Source: Candidatus Naiadarchaeum limnaeum
GTDB taxonomy: Archaea > Undinarchaeota > Undinarchaeia > Undinarchaeales > Naiadarchaeaceae
DNA: 32,000 bases
NCBI GenBank assembly: GCA_014189685.1
Contig: DVAB01000033.1
Coordinates: 2,298 to 34,297 of the forward strand
Direction of reading: 5' to 3'
Part shown: positions 2,335 to 30,301 of the stretch, piece after piece
Layout: the number at the start of each line of letters is the position of its first letter
How positions within the stretch are numbered: position 1 is the first letter of the stretch
The notes under the pieces: generated by a model
Databases searched by the model: none
Told to the model about the DNA's origin: nothing
The model's input: the letters and a program-made list of their open reading frames with translations, nothing else
Program-made: the position numbers and the translations under genes

Positions 2335-2365
2335 AACTCCAAAAAAAACAATTAACGATAAAAGA

Positions 2366-2399
2366 GGGGTCCAACGCAGGACCCTTCTTACTATTTTTT
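2366..2399 (+). terminator. Hairpin plus T-rich tract downstream of the S-layer gene
   Basis: GGGTCC (2367-2372) pairs with GGACCC (2379-2384) around loop AACGCA, followed by TTCTTACTATTTTTT. Oligo-T tracts terminate archaeal transcription. Confidence 0.6.
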
Positions 2400-2417
2400 A
2401 AAATTTATAAACAACAG

Positions 2418-2525
2418 CTTCTGTCGCTAAATTGCTGTATGATAAGCTGGCACTCATAAGGGGGCATTCTCGCAAAGCTGGAAAACCCCGAGCTCGAAGC
2501 CCCCTACGTTTCTACTTTTATTTTT
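2418..2525. repeat. GC-rich structured intergenic element, copy A (candidate small RNA; strand unresolved)
   Basis: Hairpin AGGGGGC-AT-TCTC..GAGC-TCGAA-GCCCCCT (2459-2505) is nearly identical to the copy C hairpin at 13197-13240. The degenerate 5' module (GCTGTATGATAAGCTGGCACTCATA) aligns with GCCGCGAGTAGGCCGGACTACATT of copy C, mostly by transitions. Ends in CTTTTATTTTT (2515-2525), which is identical to copy B at 4120-4130. Confidence 0.5.
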
Positions 2526-2586
2526 CCCTGAGGTGCCTTTTTCTAAAATTATTTAAACACGAGCCCAAAACAATAAAAGGTTAGAA

Positions 2587-13269: not shown

Positions 13270-13300
13270 AATAGCATTGAATTTTGATTTTTATATAAGT

Positions 13301-13385
13301 GCGGGGGACAGGATTTGAACCTGCGTACTCGCTAGGAGACAAGACCCTGAATCTTGCGCCTTTGACCAGACTCGGCCACCCCCGC
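13301..13385 (-). tRNA. tRNA-Leu (anticodon CAG), class II, no intron, CCA not encoded
   Basis: Hand-folded cloverleaf: acceptor GCGGGGG/CCCCCGC; anticodon stem CAAGA/UCUUG with loop UUCAGGG; 15-nt variable arm; T arm GCAGG-UUCAAAU-CCUGU. Confidence 0.9.
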
Positions 13386-14096: not shown

Positions 14097-14756
14097 ATGG
14101 CAATTGTAATATTGAATTTCAAAGCATACAAACAAGCAATTGGAGATGGAGCTCTAAAACTTGCGCAAATTGCAAAAGAAGTCTCACAGCAAACAGGAGT
14201 TCGAATTATAGTTGCCCCTCAACATACTGAAATCTCTAAAACATCTCTTATAATTGAAACAATAGCTCAAAACATAGATCCTATTGATCCGGGCAGAGGA
14301 ACAGGCTATCTTTTAGCAGATTCGGTTCTTCAAAACGGCGGAATAGGATCGATATTGAATCATTCTGAGCACAAAATGGACTTCCGTGAGCTGGGAGTTG
14401 CAGTTACAAAAATGCGCGAGATTGGATTAAAAAGTTTTGTTTGTGCAAAGGATACTGAGGAAGCGCGACAAATCGCATTTCTAAATCCTGACTTTATTGC
14501 AGTTGAGCCTCCTGAATTAATTGGAACTGGAAAATCAGTCTCAACAACTCAGCCAGAGGTTGTAAAAAATTCTGTTAATGCAATTCAGCAAGTAAATAAA
14601 AAGGTTAAAATCCTTTGCGGCGCAGGAATTTCAAATGGACTCGATGCAAAAAAAGCAAAAGAACTTGGAACAGAAGGAGTTTTGCTGGCAAGTGCCTTTG
14701 TTCTTGCAAAAGATCCAAAAGCAGTTCTTTTGGAAATTGCAAATGGATTAAAATGA
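14097..14756 (+). CDS. tpiA: Triosephosphate isomerase (short archaeal type)
   Basis: 219 aa. ILNFKAY, ILNHSEH, AVEPPELIGTG and CGAGIS are archaeal TIM signatures. Confidence 0.9.
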   Translation: MAIVILNFKAYKQAIGDGALKLAQIAKEVSQQTGVRIIVAPQHTEISKTSLIIETIAQNIDPIDPGRGTGYLLADSVLQNGGIGSILNHSEHKMDFRELGVAVTKMREIGLKSFVCAKDTEEARQIAFLNPDFIAVEPPELIGTGKSVSTTQPEVVKNSVNAIQQVNKKVKILCGAGISNGLDAKKAKELGTEGVLLASAFVLAKDPKAVLLEIANGLK

Positions 14757-15982
14757 CAACTAAGGAAATTTTAACAATAGATGATTTTAATTTAAAAAAC
14801 AAAACAGTTCTTGTTCGAGTTGATTTAAACTGTCCAATTGAGCCCCAAACAGGGGAATTTCTTGATGACAGGCGCATAATTCAGCATGCAAAGACCGTAA
14901 AAGAGCTTTCAGATAAAGGCGCAAAAGTTGTTGTTCTTGCCCATCAAGGCCGCGCAGGAGAAGAATACGATTTCACAACTTTAGAAAAGCATGCTAAGAG
15001 GCTTGCAAAACACACTGGGAATGGAGTTGAATATATTCCAGATATTATTGGTCCCTCCGCAAAACAAAAAATAAAATCACTTAAGTCAGGAGATATCTTA
15101 CTTTTGGAAAATGTTCGCTTTCTTGCAGAAGAAAATTTAAATCGCCCAGCAGATGCTCAGGCAACTACGCATTTTGTTAAAAATCTTGCTCCATTAGCAG
15201 ATTATTTTGTTATGGACGCATTTGCTGCCGCACATAGGTCACAGCCTTCACTTGTTGGATTTACAGAAGTTTTGCCCTCATTGGCTGGCCGTATTTTGGA
15301 GCAGGAAATCGTAATGCTAAATAAAGCAATCCAATCGAAAAAGCGCCCTTCTGTTTTTATCTCAGGCGGAGCAAAGGTAAAAGATTCCCTAAAAGTTGTA
15401 GAGCAGTTCTTAAATAGGGGAGTTGTTGATGAGGTCTTGACATGTGGCTTAGTAGGAAATATTTTTCTTGTTGCAAAAGGGTATGAAGTACGAGGTTCAG
15501 AGTATATTGAAGAATATGATAAACTTGTGGAAAAAGCAGGAAAACTGCTAAAAAATTTTTCTGATAAAATTTTTCTCCCAGACGATGTTGCAATGGATAA
15601 GTACGGGCAGAGAATGGAAGTTTCTGTTGCTGAACTTCCTCAGCCATACAGGCTCGCGGATATTGGAACAAAAACAATTGAAAAATATAAATCCAATATT
15701 GAAAAAGCCCAAACGATTATTGCAAATGGTCCTGCAGGAATCTTTGAGGCAAAGGAATTTGAAAAAGGAACAAATGAATTAGTGCGCGCTATTTCAAATT
15801 CAAAAGCCTACTCTGTTGTTGGGGGAGGCCATATTGCAACTGCAGTAATTAATTTAAACCTTGATTCTAAAATATCACACGTGAGCACAGGGGGTGGAGC
15901 GTGCATTCTCTATCTCGCAGGCGAACCACTTCCAGCTATTGAGGCTTTAAAAAAAGCTGCGCAAAAATTTGGGAAAAAATGA
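14753..15982 (+). CDS. pgk: Phosphoglycerate kinase
   Basis: The track ORF (14615) over-extends. The true ATG at 14753 overlaps the tpiA stop (ATGA) and gives MTTKEILTIDDF..KTVLVRVDLNCP. Also has HQGR, NVRF, AAHR and GGGA motifs. 409 aa. Confidence 0.9.
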   Translation: MTTKEILTIDDFNLKNKTVLVRVDLNCPIEPQTGEFLDDRRIIQHAKTVKELSDKGAKVVVLAHQGRAGEEYDFTTLEKHAKRLAKHTGNGVEYIPDIIGPSAKQKIKSLKSGDILLLENVRFLAEENLNRPADAQATTHFVKNLAPLADYFVMDAFAAAHRSQPSLVGFTEVLPSLAGRILEQEIVMLNKAIQSKKRPSVFISGGAKVKDSLKVVEQFLNRGVVDEVLTCGLVGNIFLVAKGYEVRGSEYIEEYDKLVEKAGKLLKNFSDKIFLPDDVAMDKYGQRMEVSVAELPQPYRLADIGTKTIEKYKSNIEKAQTIIANGPAGIFEAKEFEKGTNELVRAISNSKAYSVVGGGHIATAVINLNLDSKISHVSTGGGACILYLAGEPLPAIEALKKAAQKFGKK

Positions 15983-25184: not shown

Positions 25185-26645
25185 ATGAGCTCAGATATTG
25201 TTTTAGTCTACCCACGAACCGGATTTGATATAAAAACAGTCTCTTTAGAACTCCCGCTAGCTGTTTTGGCAGCTGCTACTTTTGTTGATAGAGATGGATA
25301 CAAAGTAAAAATAATTGATCAAAGAATGGACCCTGATTGGGAAAAAACTCTGCGCTCAGAGCTTAAAAACGGAACTTTATTTGTAGGGCTATCTTCAATT
25401 ACAGGAGATCAGATTCACTATTGCCTCGATGCAGCGAAAATAATTCGCGAAGTAAATCCTGATTTGCCAATTGTTTGGGGTGGAATACATCCAACGCTAC
25501 TCCCAATTCAAACAGTAGAGAGCGAATATGTTGATCTTGTTGTAAAAGGTGAAGGAGAGCAGCCGCTTTTGGATATTGCAAATATCTTGAATAAAGGAGA
25601 AAACGGACAGAAATTAAAGGATATTCGCGGAGTAACAGCGAAAGTTGATGGAAAAATTTACAATAATCCTGAGGCCCCGAACTTAAATGTTGAAGAGCTT
25701 CCATTCCTACCTTACCATTTGCTTGATATGAAAGAATATATCAAAGCATTCGGCGGAGCGGTTTCATTCCTTGCAAGCAGGGGCTGCCCGTTCCAATGCA
25801 CTTACTGCTGCAATCCATTTCTCTCCCAGAGGAGATGGAGAATGATGTCTCCAAAAAAGACATTGGAGGAACTTGAATTCATTCGCTCAAAGTGGCACTT
25901 TGACAAAGTTAAGTTTAATGACGAACACTTTTTTGTTGACAAGAACAGAGTTTACGGAATTGCCGAGGGAATAAACGATCAGTATAGCTGGGAAGCGCAA
26001 ACACGATTGGACACAGTTGCGTACATTGATTATGAAAAACTGAGCAAAACCGGCCTGTATCAAATTCAACCAGGCCTTGAATCAGGAAACCCAAGAATTC
26101 TAAAACTGATTAAAAAAGAAGTGACACTTGAAAATATAATTCGTTATAATAAGATGCTCGCACACACAGGAATTGTTTGCACCTACAACTTTATGACCGG
26201 ATTTCCAACAGAAACTATTGGCGAGATTAAAGAAACAATCCGCATGTCCTTAAAACTTTTGGATGATAATCCAAACTCTGAAATAGCTGCTTTCTATATT
26301 TTTACTCCATATCCAGGAACAGAGGCTTATGATTTGGCATTAGAAAATGGGTTTAGACCTCCAACAACTCTTGAAGGGTGGAGCAAATTCTCAAGGCAGC
26401 AGTTATTAACTCCGTGGATTCAGGATAAGAGAGAATTAATGGAAAATTTAGCAATAACTTCTAAATTTGTTGACCAGAGAAGAATCGCGCGTTTGTTTGC
26501 AAAAACCTGGATTCCAAAATTTGTTCCAAAGTTGCTTGGAAAATTATACAGGCATCGCTGGGATCGCGAGAACTTTAAAATGACTTGGGATATAAAGTTA
26601 CTAGAGTGGGTGATTGAGAAGAGAGTAAATATATTCACAAATTGA
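25185..26645 (+). CDS. B12-binding-domain radical SAM enzyme (class B)
   Basis: N-terminal cobalamin-binding Rossmann-like region (IVLVYP..LAAATFVDRDGYKVKIID..VGLSS..IVWGGIHPT) followed by SRGCPFQCTYCCNP (CxxxCxxC). An ATATATAAA box lies ~25 nt upstream of the ATG. Confidence 0.8.
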   Translation: MSSDIVLVYPRTGFDIKTVSLELPLAVLAAATFVDRDGYKVKIIDQRMDPDWEKTLRSELKNGTLFVGLSSITGDQIHYCLDAAKIIREVNPDLPIVWGGIHPTLLPIQTVESEYVDLVVKGEGEQPLLDIANILNKGENGQKLKDIRGVTAKVDGKIYNNPEAPNLNVEELPFLPYHLLDMKEYIKAFGGAVSFLASRGCPFQCTYCCNPFLSQRRWRMMSPKKTLEELEFIRSKWHFDKVKFNDEHFFVDKNRVYGIAEGINDQYSWEAQTRLDTVAYIDYEKLSKTGLYQIQPGLESGNPRILKLIKKEVTLENIIRYNKMLAHTGIVCTYNFMTGFPTETIGEIKETIRMSLKLLDDNPNSEIAAFYIFTPYPGTEAYDLALENGFRPPTTLEGWSKFSRQQLLTPWIQDKRELMENLAITSKFVDQRRIARLFAKTWIPKFVPKLLGKLYRHRWDRENFKMTWDIKLLEWVIEKRVNIFTN

Positions 26646-27798: not shown

Positions 27799-29403
27799 AT
27801 GGACCTGAAAAGCAGAAATTTCCAAATATTGTTGCTGATTATAATCTTAGGCATATCCCTGCGGCTTTATGGCCTTGGCACCGCAAGCATAAAAGCTGAT
27901 GAAGGAGGAACAATTTTCCTCTCAGAGCGGTCGATATATCAAATAATTACCTCTGCAGAAGATGTACAGCCCCCCTTTTTCTATGCCGTATTACATTTTT
28001 GGATAGCATTAGTTGGAAAAAGCGAATTTATGCTGCGGCTGCTCCCTGCAATTTTTTCCATTTTAACAATTCCCCTTGCCTATAAGCTCGGAAAAATTTT
28101 GTTTAATGAGGATGTTGGATTATTTTCTGCGTTTGTCTTTTCAGTTTCACAAGCAAATATAAGATTTGCTCAAAATTTGCGCAATTATTCTTTGGTAACC
28201 TTTTTTGTGCTGCTCTCAATTTACTTTTTCTATCAGTATTTAAGCAATCCGAACAAAAAATATCTTATTTTATTTGTAGTGAGCTCAGTGATTTCTGTTT
28301 ATTCCCATTATTTTGCAGGTTTTGTTTTAGTCGCCCAAGTCTTATATCTGTTAATTTATTACAAAAAATATCGGGAATCTTTTGTTAAACTTTCTATTGC
28401 ATTTATTGCTATTTTTGTCCTTCTATCCCCCTTAGCTACAATGTTTTTTTGGCAGGCATCAATAGAAACAAATCTTGAAAAGGCTATGTTTGAAAAAGAT
28501 TCACTTACCGATATTTCTTTAACTGCTCTAAATCAAAATAATATATTCGTTCGCATTTCTTTATTTTTTTATCACTTCAGTGTTGGGTTCCTGGAATTCA
28601 ATTTGCAAAGCCCGTTTTTTGTTGCAATACTTTTTTTGGCCATAATTGTCTATGCAACTTTCTTTTTCACTGCACTTAGGTCTCTTCTACAACAAAGCAA
28701 GGAAAAACTAATGCTTCTTTTACTAATCCTAATTGTCCCAACTGCCCTCCTCTCTGTTCTCTGGCTCTCAAAAATTATAGTTCCATTAGCATATACAAGA
28801 TATCTTCTCTATATTTCTCCAATCTATTACACCATAATTGGAGTGGGTCTTTTCACTGGAATTAGTCAGCTCGAATCCTTAAAATCTAACTTATTAAAAA
28901 AATCTGTTTTAGTTATCTTTATAGTTCTTATTTTATCTTTTAATTCAGTCTCGCTTTTGGTTTATTATGATTCTGATCCTAAAAAAGAGGACTGGCGCTC
29001 TGCAGTTTCTCTAATTAATAGCAAATCAAATGGCAATGAGGTTATTGGTATTTACTCCGGAGCCTATACTTTTAATTTGAAAAGTTATTTGCTTAAAGAT
29101 CTTGAAATTTATACTCTGCCTGAAAACTTTAATATTCGCGGTGCCACTTTATCAAAAATTCTTTATAGTTCCTTTAACCCAATTAACGAGTCTAACAGTT
29201 GCAATATTCTAAATCTTTTAGACGAGAGTAAAACTGGAATATGGTATGTGCACGCTGCTCCAACATCTCCTTCTGATAAAGATTTGATTAAAAAATGCCT
29301 AGATTCAAATTTAAAACTCGCCGATTCTTTTGAAAATTCATATACAAATTCACGTGGCACAGTAATTAAGGATCTTTTAGTTTATCACTATGTTGTTAAA
29401 TAA
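27799..29403 (+). CDS. GT-C fold glycosyltransferase, family 39 / ArnT-PMT-like
   Basis: 534 aa with ~12 TM helices and a C-terminal soluble domain. A DE motif in the first loop (IKADEGGTIF) is as in PMT/ArnT enzymes. Confidence 0.6.
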   Translation: MDLKSRNFQILLLIIILGISLRLYGLGTASIKADEGGTIFLSERSIYQIITSAEDVQPPFFYAVLHFWIALVGKSEFMLRLLPAIFSILTIPLAYKLGKILFNEDVGLFSAFVFSVSQANIRFAQNLRNYSLVTFFVLLSIYFFYQYLSNPNKKYLILFVVSSVISVYSHYFAGFVLVAQVLYLLIYYKKYRESFVKLSIAFIAIFVLLSPLATMFFWQASIETNLEKAMFEKDSLTDISLTALNQNNIFVRISLFFYHFSVGFLEFNLQSPFFVAILFLAIIVYATFFFTALRSLLQQSKEKLMLLLLILIVPTALLSVLWLSKIIVPLAYTRYLLYISPIYYTIIGVGLFTGISQLESLKSNLLKKSVLVIFIVLILSFNSVSLLVYYDSDPKKEDWRSAVSLINSKSNGNEVIGIYSGAYTFNLKSYLLKDLEIYTLPENFNIRGATLSKILYSSFNPINESNSCNILNLLDESKTGIWYVHAAPTSPSDKDLIKKCLDSNLKLADSFENSYTNSRGTVIKDLLVYHYVVK

Positions 29404-29421: not shown

Positions 29422-29461
29422 AGTATATGATAGTATTTAAATACTTTATCATACTTAGTAT
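29422..29461. promoter_or_regulatory. Operator-like array of five AGTAT/ATACT half-sites overlapping the TATA box of the RHH-nucleotidyltransferase gene
   Basis: AGTAT 29422-29426 and 29432-29436, TTAA centre 29437-29440, ATACT 29441-29445 and 29451-29455, AGTAT 29457-29461. Perfect 14-nt palindrome AGTATTTAAATACT (29432-29445). The TATA-like TATTTAAATA sits ~25 nt before the ATG at 29468. Confidence 0.6.
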
Positions 29462-29467
29462 GATAAT

Positions 29468-30301
29468 ATGCCCAAGGATAGAATTACCATTACTCTTGAG
29501 AAAGAGCTATTAAAAAAGCTTGATACTCTCGTTGATGGCCGGGATATTAGAAGCAGATCGCATGCAATAGAGCGAGCGCTTTTTAGCCATTTAGAAGAGG
29601 GTAAAGTAAAACAAGCTTTGATTTTAGCCGGAGGAGAAGGCACTCGATTGCGGCCATTTACTTATGAGATTCCCAAACCCCTTATTCCAATAAAAGGAAA
29701 ACCAATGCTTGAGCATATTATAAACCACCTTTTAGCCTATGGGGTAAAGAATTTTATACTGTCTGTCGGTTATATGTCTGAAAAAATAATTTCGCACTTT
29801 GGCGATGGAAAAAAACTTGGGGTCCATATAGATTATGTAATTGAAAAAGAAAGGCTAGGAACAGCAGGCCCGCTAAGACTTGCAAAAGATCTTTTGGAAG
29901 AAGATTTTCTAATGTTAAACGGTGATATTCTTTCAAGGGTAAATATCACAGAATTTTTCGCGCATCATCAAAAAATGAATGGTCTCGGAACTATTGTTTT
30001 AGTTGCCGTTAATGATCCCTCAAAATATGGGACAGTCGATCTGTATGGAAACAAAATAATGAAATTTGTTGAAAAGCCAAAAAAAAGCAAAGTGGTTTCA
30101 AACCTAGTGAATGGTGGAATTTACCTTCTTAAATCCGATATAATTGACTATGTTCCAAAAAAAGGATTTTCAATGATTGAAAAGGATGTTTTTCCCAAAT
30201 TAGCGCAAGAAGAGAAGCTCTATGGCTATATCTACACAGGGCCGTGGTATGATTTAGGCACTATAGAAAGTTATGGGCAGGCAATTAAAAATTGGAGCTG
30301 A
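29468..30301 (+). CDS. Ribbon-helix-helix (CopG/NikR-like) domain fused to a sugar-1-phosphate nucleotidyltransferase
   Basis: Residues 4-42 (RITITLEKELLKKLDTLVDGRDIRSRSHAIERALFSHL) fit the RHH beta-alpha-alpha pattern. Residue 50 onward, ALILAGGEGTRLRPFTYEIPKPLIPI, is the G-G-x-G-T-R-L NTP-transferase signature. Confidence 0.8.
   Translation: MPKDRITITLEKELLKKLDTLVDGRDIRSRSHAIERALFSHLEEGKVKQALILAGGEGTRLRPFTYEIPKPLIPIKGKPMLEHIINHLLAYGVKNFILSVGYMSEKIISHFGDGKKLGVHIDYVIEKERLGTAGPLRLAKDLLEEDFLMLNGDILSRVNITEFFAHHQKMNGLGTIVLVAVNDPSKYGTVDLYGNKIMKFVEKPKKSKVVSNLVNGGIYLLKSDIIDYVPKKGFSMIEKDVFPKLAQEEKLYGYIYTGPWYDLGTIESYGQAIKNWS

What the first reader, a model, noticed from the sequence alone, without database searches (positions are those of the whole stretch)
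29468..30301. Ribbon-helix-helix DNA-binding domain fused in-frame to a sugar-1-phosphate nucleotidyltransferase
Seen:
- One uninterrupted 277-aa ORF. Residues 4-42 have the RHH pattern: a beta strand (ITITL), helix 1 (EKELLKKLDTL) and helix 2 (RSRSHAIERALFSHL).
- Residues ~50 onward carry the canonical LILAGGEGTRLRPFT nucleotidyltransferase signature and fold.
- There is no ATG or GTG at the domain boundary. The only alternative is a TTG at codon 51.

Known: RHH domains (CopG, Arc/MetJ, NikR) bind operators as dimers of dimers, and NikR shows that an RHH can be wired to a ligand-binding domain.

Inference: this could be a one-component system in which the enzyme that makes an NDP-sugar also senses substrate or product and represses its own, and perhaps the island's, transcription. 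I do not know of a characterised example of this architecture.
Basis: partly seen in the sequence, partly recalled or inferred. Interest (0 to 1): 0.65.

Follow-up and report, generated by a model that had tools for sequence, protein, structure and literature searches.

The report
Sugar-activating enzyme with built-in gene switch
An archaeal enzyme that makes activated sugars for cell-surface glycans carries a small DNA-binding domain at its front end, and conserved matching DNA repeats on its own promoter suggest it controls its own production; this enzyme-plus-regulator family appears never to have been described.

Summary
ORF 29468-30301 encodes a Pfam-significant RHH_1 domain (res 5-43) fused by a ~6-residue linker to a complete sugar-1-phosphate nucleotidyltransferase (res 50-274).

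It is a conserved family, not an accident. About 280 clusters at 50% identity carry it, in DPANN archaea and some Patescibacteria, and public sources name them only as nucleotidyltransferases. The RHH codons are under purifying selection, and the internal TTG start is not conserved.

The RHH is closest to NikR's, with R5/T7/T9 aligned to NikR R3/T5/T7. The gene's promoter carries the NikR-type half-site word: TATA box 29436-29443, then TTATCATAC-TTA-GTATGATAA ending 2 nt before the ATG.

A 21-nt block is invariant in six loci at 59-86% protein identity. Paired TCATA/TATGA words in a 9-10-bp register occur upstream in 12 of 24 fusion loci (7 of 13 independent groups). They are absent upstream of 61 RHH-less orthologues and essentially absent from control promoters.

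Best reading: a bifunctional "trigger enzyme" that represses its own, probably leaderless, promoter. Ligand control is plausible but untested. Regulation of the whole island is not supported in this window. I class it as a new variant of a known kind (PutA, RbkR, BirA, NadR).

The parts
29468..30301 (+). Complete ORF (277 aa) of the RHH-nucleotidyltransferase fusion protein
   Evidence: The identical protein occurs on 4 contigs. Homologues cover it full-length.
29480..29596 (+). Ribbon-helix-helix DNA-binding domain (residues 5-43). The strand is R5-I-T7-I-T9-L, with helices at about 12-21 and 30-41.
   Evidence: Pfam RHH_1 scores 30-35 bits against a cut-off of 20.5. 18 of 23 family members hit RHH_1. 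The family profile hits the E. coli NikR RHH at E 1.2e-6. AF2 places helices at 12-21 and 30-41. dN/dS is 0.11.
29597..29614 (+). Short linker (residues 44-49, EEGKVK) joining RHH helix 2 to the first strand of the enzyme fold
   Evidence: AF2 places strand 49-53 directly after helix 30-41.
29615..30289 (+). Sugar-1-phosphate nucleotidyltransferase domain (residues 50-274). It includes GGEGTRLRP (29630-29656), PKP with K70, LGTAG, NGD153 and E202-K203-P204.
   Evidence: Pfam PF00483 scores 170.5 bits. The best solved relatives are GDP-mannose pyrophosphorylases at E ~1e-44. The catalytic motifs are invariant in the family alignment. AF2 pLDDT is about 90.
29618..29620 (+).
   Evidence: It is present but not conserved. 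Only 2 of 18 loci have a start-capable codon at this column, and the nearest relatives use TTA and CTT.
29436..29443 (+). TATA-box-like element TTTAAATA, centred 28.5 nt before the ATG, which implies a leaderless or near-leaderless mRNA
   Evidence: It is invariant in six aligned loci. Its start lies 32-40 nt before the ATG in relatives. The window is archaeal. No SD motif is present.
29446..29454 (+). Candidate operator half-site S2, TTATCATAC (core TCATAC 29449-29454)
   Evidence: It lies inside the invariant 21-nt block 29436-29456.
29458..29466 (+). Candidate operator half-site S3, GTATGATAA (core GTATGA 29458-29463). It is the exact reverse complement of S2, with a 3-nt spacer, and ends 2 nt before the ATG.
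   Evidence: It is conserved as GTATGAT in L127, L128 and L131 and replaced by a tandem TCATAC in L129 and L130.
29425..29433 (+). Possible third half-site S1, ATATGATAG, upstream of the TATA box. With S2 it brackets the TATA as ATATGA-N18-TCATAC.
   Evidence: Sequence. L128 has TCATAC at the equivalent place. The support is weaker because the site is not conserved in L127 or L131.

Best explanation
The gene encodes a bifunctional 'trigger enzyme'. It is a catalytically intact sugar-1-phosphate nucleotidyltransferase, probably of the GDP-mannose/NDP-hexose pyrophosphorylase type, feeding S-layer or N-glycan synthesis. Its N-terminal NikR/CopG-like ribbon-helix-helix domain dimerises and binds TCATAC/GTATGA half-sites on the gene's own promoter.

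In this window two inverted half-sites (29449-29454 and 29458-29463, centres 9 bp apart) fill the space between the TATA box and the start of a leaderless mRNA. A third possible site lies just upstream of the TATA. Two adjacent RHH dimers, held together by the enzyme domains, would therefore occupy the place where TFB and RNA polymerase assemble and would repress the gene. The result is negative autoregulation of the enzyme that sets the activated-sugar supply.

Shown here: the domain architecture, family conservation, purifying selection on the RHH, the NikR-like recognition strand, and the conserved, promoter-specific, RHH-linked repeats.

Inferred: actual DNA binding, the sign of regulation, the tetrameric state, and any modulation of DNA binding by NTP, sugar-1-P or NDP-sugar. 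I put ligand modulation at about 0.35-0.4. It is attractive because the NTP-binding loop GGxGTRLRP starts only about 12 residues after RHH helix 2.
For: Architecture and fold:
- Pfam RHH_1 and NTP_transferase both exceed their curated cut-offs.
- The family profile hits the NikR RHH at E 1.2e-6, and also P. horikoshii NikR and CopG.
- R5/T7/T9 align with NikR R3/T5/T7.

Family and translation:
- 282 representatives at 50% identity have E<=1e-10, all with an N-terminal RHH plus junction.
- The RHH is conserved at ~50% identity, with D19, R30 and E35 invariant and T9, S31, H32 and A33 nearly so.
- dN/dS of RHH codons is 0.11.
- The internal start is not conserved.

Operator:
- The E. coli NikR operator is GTATGA-N16-TCATAC (PMC7055735).
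- The window has TCATAC-N3-GTATGA between the TATA and the ATG.
- A 21-nt block is invariant in 6 loci at 59-86% protein identity, with diverged flanks and different neighbours.
- At least two TCATA/TATGA words occur in -70..-1 in 13 of 24 fusion genes against 3 of 83 control promoters (p=5e-8). Two of the three controls are divergent neighbours sharing the same region.
- 15 of 21 in-register pairs in 187 kb fall in the 1.3% of sequence just upstream of the fusion gene.
- After collapsing relatives, 7 of 13 groups are positive (p~1e-6).
- None of 61 RHH-less orthologues has the pair, including 10 AT-rich ones.

Context and class:
- The window is archaeal and SD motifs are absent.
- Precedents for the class are PutA (PMC5293562) and RbkR, BirA and NadR (PMC5397151).
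Against: - There is no experimental evidence of any kind; everything is comparative.
- 6 of 13 family groups lack the TCATA pair. They show other 10-bp-periodic repeats (GTAATAC, TTATACTA, ATTAG), which I did not test statistically.
- The AF2 monomer model gives only pLDDT 52-64 for the RHH and no strand. That is expected for an obligate dimer but is not positive proof.
- The repeats are AT-rich and adjoin the TATA box. Part of the conserved block could be core promoter, or the target of a separate NikR-like regulator.
- The ~6-residue linker might restrict DNA access.
- In the L005-L008 clade the sites lie upstream of the TATA, a position that in RbkR was read as activation. The sign of regulation may therefore differ between clades.
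- That NikR residues R3/T5/T7 are the base-contacting residues rests on my memory of the NikR-DNA structure (PDB 2HZV), not on a text retrieved here.
Confidence: 0.7

Rival explanations
1. Constitutive autorepressor only. The RHH binds the promoter and buffers the enzyme's own level, but DNA binding does not respond to any sugar or nucleotide ligand, so there is no sensing.
For: All the operator evidence fits simple negative autoregulation equally well. Nothing here bears on ligand response. Many small RHH repressors such as CopG and Arc autoregulate without a ligand (established knowledge).
Against: A permanent fusion to the enzyme across about 280 clusters, with a very short linker next to the NTP-binding loop, is more easily explained if the enzyme state is coupled to DNA binding. 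That is the case in BirA, RbkR and PutA (PMC5397151).
Confidence: 0.3
2. The RHH is only an oligomerisation module for the enzyme and does not bind DNA. The conserved promoter repeats are core promoter elements or the site of another regulator.
For: RHH domains are obligate dimers and could simply dimerise the enzyme. The conserved block abuts the TATA box.
Against: The surface-exposed strand residues R5/T7/T9 and the N-R-S helix-2 cap are conserved like those of DNA-binding NikR/CopG. The repeats use the NikR half-site word. They occur only where the RHH is present, in 0 of 61 RHH-less orthologues, and are rare at other promoters of the same loci.
Confidence: 0.1
3. The protein is an activator rather than a repressor, or its sign depends on the clade: it recruits TBP/TFB when bound next to the TATA box.
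For: In L005-L008 the tandem TCATAC sites lie just upstream of the TATA box. That position was interpreted as activating for RbkR. In the window a possible third site S1 lies upstream of the TATA.
Against: In the window clade, and in L140 and L004, the best-conserved sites lie between the TATA and the ATG/TSS. This is the classical position for archaeal repression by blocking RNA polymerase recruitment (established knowledge).
Confidence: 0.12
4. The RHH part is not made: translation starts at the internal TTG (codon 51) and the upstream reading frame is fortuitous.
For: A TTG exists at codon 51. Some gene callers truncate family members, giving 258-aa entries.
Against: The start-capable codon is not conserved (2 of 18 loci), and L133 has no alternative start at all. 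RHH codons have dN/dS 0.11 with pS 0.58. The TATA box sits about 28 nt before the first ATG, with no SD before either start. About 280 clusters keep the frame open.
Confidence: 0.03

Closest known systems
PutA (trifunctional proline utilization A, Enterobacteria)
   Same: An N-terminal RHH domain is fused in one chain to a metabolic enzyme, and the protein moonlights as an autogenous repressor of its own regulon (PMC5293562).
   Different: The enzyme domains are unrelated (PRODH/P5CDH flavoenzyme). PutA is bacterial and about 1300 aa. Its switch is redox-driven membrane association, and its operator word is different. The RHH here is closer to NikR than to anything else solved.
NikR (nickel-responsive RHH repressor)
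   Same: It is the most similar solved RHH (E 1.2e-6), with the same R-x-T-x-T strand and N-R-S cap. Its operator half-site GTATGA/TCATAC is the same word. The RHH is wired to a C-terminal ligand-binding oligomerisation domain.
   Different: There is no ACT-like nickel-binding domain, and NCBIfam NikR models score 21-27 bits against cut-offs of 83-175. Half-sites are 9-10 bp apart (adjacent dimers) rather than N16 apart, and can be direct as well as inverted. The C-terminal domain is an enzyme.
RbkR (archaeal riboflavin kinase/regulator)
   Same: It is an archaeal enzyme fused to an N-terminal DNA-binding domain. It has lineage-variable operators, often in tandem, and autoregulates. Substrate CTP and product FMN modulate its DNA binding (PMC5397151).
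   Different: Its DNA-binding domain is a winged HTH, not an RHH. The enzyme is a riboflavin kinase and the pathway is vitamin metabolism, not glycan precursor supply.
BirA and NadR (bacterial enzyme-repressors)
   Same: They share the 'trigger enzyme' logic. NadR even contains a nucleotidyltransferase (NMN adenylyltransferase) fused to a DNA-binding domain.
   Different: They have HTH domains, unrelated enzyme folds and cofactor metabolism. Their co-repressor mechanisms are proven, whereas none is shown here.
Stand-alone short sugar-1-phosphate nucleotidyltransferases (GDP-mannose pyrophosphorylase, HddC, MurU, RmlA class)
   Same: Residues 50-274 are a full member of this fold with all signature motifs.
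   Different: None of the solved or RHH-less relatives has the N-terminal RHH, and their promoters lack the repeats.

Membership tests
Ribbon-helix-helix superfamily (Pfam RHH_1 / CopG-Arc-MetJ-NikR) | A beta-alpha-alpha sequence profile, with an N-terminal strand of alternating polar and hydrophobic residues followed by two helices | tested here: met
   RHH_1 scores 30.2-34.6 bits against a cut-off of 20.5. 18 of 23 members match. AF2 places helices at 12-21 and 30-41 after an extended segment.
Ribbon-helix-helix superfamily (Pfam RHH_1 / CopG-Arc-MetJ-NikR) | A conserved turn or helix-2 N-cap (G-x-S/T/N-like; N-R-S in NikR) that contacts the DNA backbone | tested here: met
   R30 is invariant and S31 nearly so. 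They align with NikR N-R-S.
Ribbon-helix-helix superfamily (Pfam RHH_1 / CopG-Arc-MetJ-NikR) | An obligate dimer that inserts a two-stranded sheet into the major groove and binds repeated operator subsites | not testable with these tools
   Only indirect evidence: conserved paired half-sites at the protein's own promoter. No multimer or DNA modelling tool was available.
NikR family | A C-terminal ACT-like tetramerisation and nickel-binding domain | tested here: not met
   The C-terminal part is NTP_transferase. NCBIfam NikR models match only the first ~45 residues, at 21-27 bits against cut-offs of 83-175.
NikR family | An operator made of GTATGA/TCATAC half-sites separated by about two helical turns | tested here: inconclusive
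   The half-site word is the same but the spacing is 9-10 bp. A possible ATATGA-N18-TCATAC pair brackets the TATA in the window only.
Sugar-1-phosphate nucleotidyltransferase (PF00483) | The G-x-G-T-R-x2-P-x-T NTP-binding loop, the catalytic Lys of the PKP motif, the EKP sugar-phosphate motif and the acidic metal ligands | tested here: met
   The domain scores 170.5 bits. G55, G56, G58, P63, T65, K70, D153, E202, K203 and P204 are invariant in the family, and D240 is nearly so.
Sugar-1-phosphate nucleotidyltransferase (PF00483) | A defined substrate specificity (ManC, RmlA, GlmU, GalU equivalogs) | tested here: not met
   No NCBIfam equivalog cut-off is reached; the best is man1P_GTase at 187 bits against 440. 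The best PDB relatives are GDP-mannose pyrophosphorylases, and PGM/PMM is adjacent in L135, L137 and L140. Specificity remains unassigned.
Trigger enzymes (bifunctional enzyme-transcription regulators: PutA, BirA, NadR, RbkR) | A DNA-binding domain and an intact catalytic domain in one polypeptide | tested here: met
Trigger enzymes (bifunctional enzyme-transcription regulators: PutA, BirA, NadR, RbkR) | Cognate operator at the promoter of its own gene or pathway genes | tested here: met
   Comparative genomics only.
Trigger enzymes (bifunctional enzyme-transcription regulators: PutA, BirA, NadR, RbkR) | DNA binding controlled by the enzyme's substrate, product or catalytic state | not testable with these tools
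   No data; this needs binding assays with ligands.
RHH antitoxin of a type II toxin-antitoxin pair | A small RHH protein encoded next to a toxin gene | tested here: not met
   The RHH is fused to an enzyme. The neighbours are glycan-synthesis genes in the window and in related loci, and none was identified as a toxin. HicB-like and MazE model hits are below threshold.

The most novel reading that the evidence does not exclude
This is an NDP-sugar homeostat. The enzyme domain reports its nucleotide, sugar-1-P or NDP-sugar occupancy to the tightly tethered RHH, so transcription of the activated-sugar supply gene follows the cell's activated-sugar pool. In some lineages the adjacent PGM/PMM or divergent glycan operons would follow too. 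That would make it the first trigger enzyme in glycan precursor metabolism. It would also be one of the first sequence-defined transcription factor-operator pairs for DPANN archaea and Patescibacteria, with recognition strand and operator word co-varying between clades (R-x-T-x-T with TCATAC; RIS-x-TI with GTAATAC; EQLTITL with TTATAC).
Probability: 0.35. Interest if true: 0.72.

Novelty: new variant of a known kind. Interest (0 to 1): 0.62.

Why it matters
Almost no transcription factor-operator pairs are defined for DPANN archaea or Patescibacteria, which are uncultivated, genome-reduced organisms whose surface glycans mediate attachment to hosts. This finding gives a directly testable protein-DNA pair: a 277-aa protein and a 21-bp dyad.

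[quoted passage not shown] It also corrects the annotation of a family of about 280 clusters that public databases name only as nucleotidyltransferases.

The apparent co-variation of recognition strand and operator word across clades would make the family a natural system for studying RHH specificity.

Tried and rejected
- The metagenome locus scan with an RHH+junction alignment chose the enzyme motif as its pattern and returned only 4 fusion loci. I used the look-up of encoding contigs instead (all 12 look-ups spent).
- Fold search of the AF2 model failed twice with 'no such model on the box'. No structural neighbour list was obtained and the RHH fold rests on sequence profiles.
- Multimer and DNA-complex modelling were not available.
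- A literature search for the NikR base-contact residues retrieved nothing usable, so that point is from memory.
- I looked for further operators in the 32-kb window. There is no second dyad or tandem at up to 2 mismatches. One lone exact GTATGATAA lies at 2437-2445 and is judged to be chance.
- Rfam found nothing but a tRNA.
- Readings rejected: a toxin-antitoxin reading of the RHH (no toxin gene identified among the neighbours); NikR membership (no metal-binding domain); an internal TTG start (not conserved); a fusion artefact (the family is conserved and the identical protein sits on 4 contigs).
- The sigma-70 promoter scan was not used because the window is archaeal.

Full report
**1. Observation**

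The ORF 29468-30301 (+) is real, uninterrupted and 277 aa long. Pfam places RHH_1 (PF01402) at residues 5-43. It scores 30.2 bits in the whole protein and 34.6 bits (E 1.7e-8) for the first 50 aa alone, against a cut-off of 20.5. NTP_transferase (PF00483) covers residues 50-274 at 170.5 bits. The only alternative in-frame start before the GG motif is TTG at codon 51, at 29618-29620.

**2. A family, not an accident**

A search of 5.8 billion proteins returned 5423 relatives. The best 120 are 273-318 aa, apart from four shorter partial entries, and nearly all cover 99-100% of the query. In an alignment of 30 members at 51-86% identity the N-terminal segment is as conserved as the enzyme. D19, R30 and E35 are invariant, T9, D23, S31, H32 and A33 are nearly so, and the consensus is KERxTITL...D..VDG..IRNRSHAIE.

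An exhaustive HMM search with the RHH+junction profile against 1.84 billion representatives found 282 clusters with E<=1e-10 and 887 with E<=1e-3. All of the top 150 match at the protein N-terminus through the junction.

Named members come from Altiarchaeota, Micrarchaeota, Aenigmarchaeota, Parvarchaeota, Nanoarchaeia and Woesearchaeota, and from Berkelbacteria/Patescibacteria. No source name mentions an RHH, and the precomputed Pfam column lists PF01402 for only a few.

The window itself is archaeal, with an S-layer protein, FEN-1, STT3/AglB, TruD and PGK. Its FEN-1 is nearest (62-64% identity) to an unclassified archaeon and to Undinarchaeales.

**3. What kind of RHH**

The domain alone best matches NikR N-termini in NCBIfam (E 4e-6), far below the NikR full-length cut-offs. 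In the PDB the single sequence hits E. coli NikR at E 0.005. The family profile hits it at E 1.2e-6, followed by P. horikoshii NikR, the Rv0298 antitoxin and CopG. The alignment puts R5, T7 and T9 on NikR R3, T5 and T7, and R30-S31 on NikR's N-R-S. No solved structure contains residues 1-43 joined to the enzyme fold.

The AF2 monomer model has pLDDT 84 overall and about 90 for the enzyme. It has helices at 12-21 and 30-41 preceded by an extended, low-confidence segment. That is the pattern expected of an obligate-dimer RHH modelled alone.

**4. The enzyme half**

All signature motifs are invariant across the family: GGxGTRLRP, PKP with K70, LGTAG, NGD153 and E202-K203-P204. The enzyme is therefore probably active. 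The best solved relatives are GDP-mannose pyrophosphorylases at E ~1e-44, but no NCBIfam equivalog cut-off is met, so specificity is unassigned.

Phosphomanno/glucomutase (PGM_PMM) lies directly downstream in L135 and L137 and directly upstream in L140. That fits a role in sugar-1-phosphate activation.

**5. Is the RHH translated?**

- Between the window and L128, RHH codons 1-48 have dN/dS 0.11 (pS 0.58), against 0.05 for the enzyme.
- The column of codon 51 holds a start-capable codon in only 2 of 18 loci. The two closest relatives use TTA and CTT, and L133 has no alternative start at all.
- A TATA-like box, TTTAAATA (29436-29443), is centred 28.5 nt before the first ATG. There is no Shine-Dalgarno motif, and other genes of the window show the same pattern. 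By the usual archaeal spacing of about 26-27 nt from TATA centre to TSS (established knowledge), the mRNA is leaderless or nearly so and the first AUG is the RHH start.

**6. The cis element**

The 64-nt spacer before the gene reads ...ATATGATAG-TATTTAAATAC-T-TTATCATAC-TTA-GTATGATAA-T-ATG. It contains a perfect 9-bp inverted repeat (29446-29454 and 29458-29466) whose cores, TCATAC and GTATGA, are the half-sites of the E. coli NikR operator GTATGA-N16-TCATAC (PMC7055735).

The same arrangement precedes the gene in several relatives:
- L128 (86% protein identity).
- L127 (73%), whose upstream neighbours are unrelated (ferredoxin and radical SAM).
- L131 (61%).
- L129 (60%), with a tandem TCATAC x2.
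- L130 (59%), with a tandem followed by a GTATGA that contains the start codon.

Aligned, these six loci share 21 contiguous invariant columns, TTTAAATACTTTATCATACTT (29436-29456), while the sequence further upstream is unalignable. Synonymous sites between these genes are saturated, so the block is under selection.

More distant clades also carry the words:
- L140 has TCATAC-N4-TCATAC next to the ATG.
- L004 has TCATAA-N3-TTATGA.
- L137 has TCATAT-N15-GTATGA.
- L005 has three TCATA words at 9-10-bp steps.
- L006, L007 and L008 have two TCATAC words 10 bp apart, just upstream of a TATA box.

**7. Statistics and controls**

- At least two TCATA/TATGA words occur in -70..-1 of 13 of 24 fusion genes against 3 of 83 other promoters in the same loci (Fisher p=5e-8). 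Two of the three control hits are divergent neighbours sharing the same intergenic region.
- In all 187 kb held for these loci there are 21 pairs in an 8-12-bp register. Fifteen lie within 100 nt upstream of the fusion gene, a zone that is 1.3% of the sequence.
- With L007 added, 12 of 24 loci are positive. After collapsing loci at 65% protein identity, 7 of 13 groups are positive, against 1 of 81 controls (p~1e-6).
- None of 61 RHH-less orthologues has such a pair upstream, including 10 AT-rich archaeal or CPR ones. The element therefore travels with the RHH, not with the enzyme or with AT-rich promoters in general.
- The remaining groups show other 10-bp-periodic repeats in the same position: GTAATAC in L133, L134 and L139; TTATAC(T)A in L135 and L001; TTTATACTAC in L081 and L082; ATTAG x3 in bacterial L003. 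These go with altered strand residues (RIS-x-TI, EQLTITL, EK-x-AITL, EKLTVTI). This co-variation is a lead, not a tested result.

**8. Mechanism proposed**

Two RHH dimers, so four chains held by the enzyme domains, would sit on S2 and S3. These sites are 9 bp apart centre to centre, within the 7-11-bp range I recall for adjacent RHH dimers of omega, MetJ, CopG and Arc. They span about -22 to -2 relative to the ATG/TSS, between the TATA box and the start site. Binding there blocks TFB/RNA polymerase recruitment, the standard archaeal repression mode (established knowledge). A third, weaker site S1 (29425-29433) upstream of the TATA may add cooperativity.

The gene is monocistronic here. PMT_2 ends at 29403 on the same strand and the next gene is convergent. 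No other dyad or tandem exists in the 32 kb. In this window only autoregulation is supported, not control of the whole glycan island. In relatives the sites head an NTase-PGM/PMM operon (L135/L137-type contexts) or lie in short divergent intergenic regions shared with epimerase/aminotransferase operons (L131, L137, L006). The regulon may be wider there.

Ligand control is inferred only from analogy and from the ~6-residue linker that places the RHH next to the NTP-binding loop.

**9. Comparison with known systems**

It works like the trigger enzymes PutA (RHH + enzyme, autogenous repressor; PMC5293562), RbkR (archaeal wHTH + riboflavin kinase, CTP-stimulated and FMN-suppressed; PMC5397151), BirA and NadR. 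Its DNA-reading head is NikR-like. It is not a NikR, because it has no metal-binding domain and the model cut-offs are not met. It is not an antitoxin, because no toxin gene was identified among its neighbours.

Six literature searches found no description of an RHH-sugar-nucleotidyltransferase fusion. The PDB has no such structure. The literature library is limited to open-access text, and I could not query InterPro architectures, so prior database-level listing of the architecture cannot be excluded.

**10. Verdict**

The object is a conserved, unannotated, probably bifunctional enzyme-autoregulator with a well-defined candidate operator. I class it as a new variant of a known kind, with interest 0.62. 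I put autoregulatory DNA binding at 0.7 and ligand sensing at about 0.35.

Noticed in passing
L133 3950-4000, L134 3890-3920, L139 3960-3990, L135 3940-3985, L001 3950-3995, L081 1120-1150, L082 640-670, L003 3945-3975: Family clades lacking TCATAC carry other 10-bp-periodic repeats in the same promoter position: GTAATAC, TTATAC(T)A, TTTATACTAC and ATTAG x3. These go with changed RHH strand residues (RIS-x-TI, EQLTITL, EK-x-AITL, EKLTVTI), which may reflect co-evolution of reader and operator.
   Followed up: partly
L005 3930-3960, L006 3935-3955, L007 3759-3777, L008 3929-3945: In one clade the tandem TCATAC sites lie just upstream of the TATA box rather than between the TATA and the ATG. In L007 they are about 220 nt from the ATG. 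The sign or mode of regulation may differ between clades.
   Followed up: partly
L003 (Berkelbacteria), P0020 and P0114 (Patescibacteria): CPR bacteria carry the same fusion at about 51-55% identity to DPANN archaeal versions. This suggests inter-domain transfer between the two groups of ultra-small organisms.
   Followed up: no
L139 4878-5567; L140 609-1295: A second, RHH-less NTP_transferase paralogue sits next to or near the fusion gene. The RHH form is therefore a specialised copy in some genomes.
   Followed up: no
proteins P0275, P0276, P0278: Some database entries of the family are 258 aa instead of 277. Gene callers picked an internal start and cut off the RHH strand, an annotation inconsistency that hides the architecture.
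   Followed up: no
window 2335-2586: This 250-nt intergenic stretch has GC-rich hairpin-like segments and a lone exact GTATGATAA at 2437-2445. There is no Rfam match. The lone half-site has no partner and is probably chance.
   Followed up: partly
window 14097-15982: The PGK ORF as listed (TTG at 14615) overlaps the preceding ORF by 140 nt, and the Pfam PGK match starts at residue 55, so the true start is probably later. The triose-phosphate/PGK/GAPDH cluster, and PTH2-TruD-STT3 further on, are syntenic with L134, where the fusion gene sits just before TruD.
   Followed up: no
window 25185-26645; L127 209-2206: A B12-binding radical SAM enzyme lies inside the glycan island and also neighbours the fusion gene in L127. 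It may be a sugar-modifying (methylating or epimerising) step.
   Followed up: no
window 13299-13385 (-): tRNA-Leu(CAG) is the only RNA gene detected in the window.
   Followed up: yes
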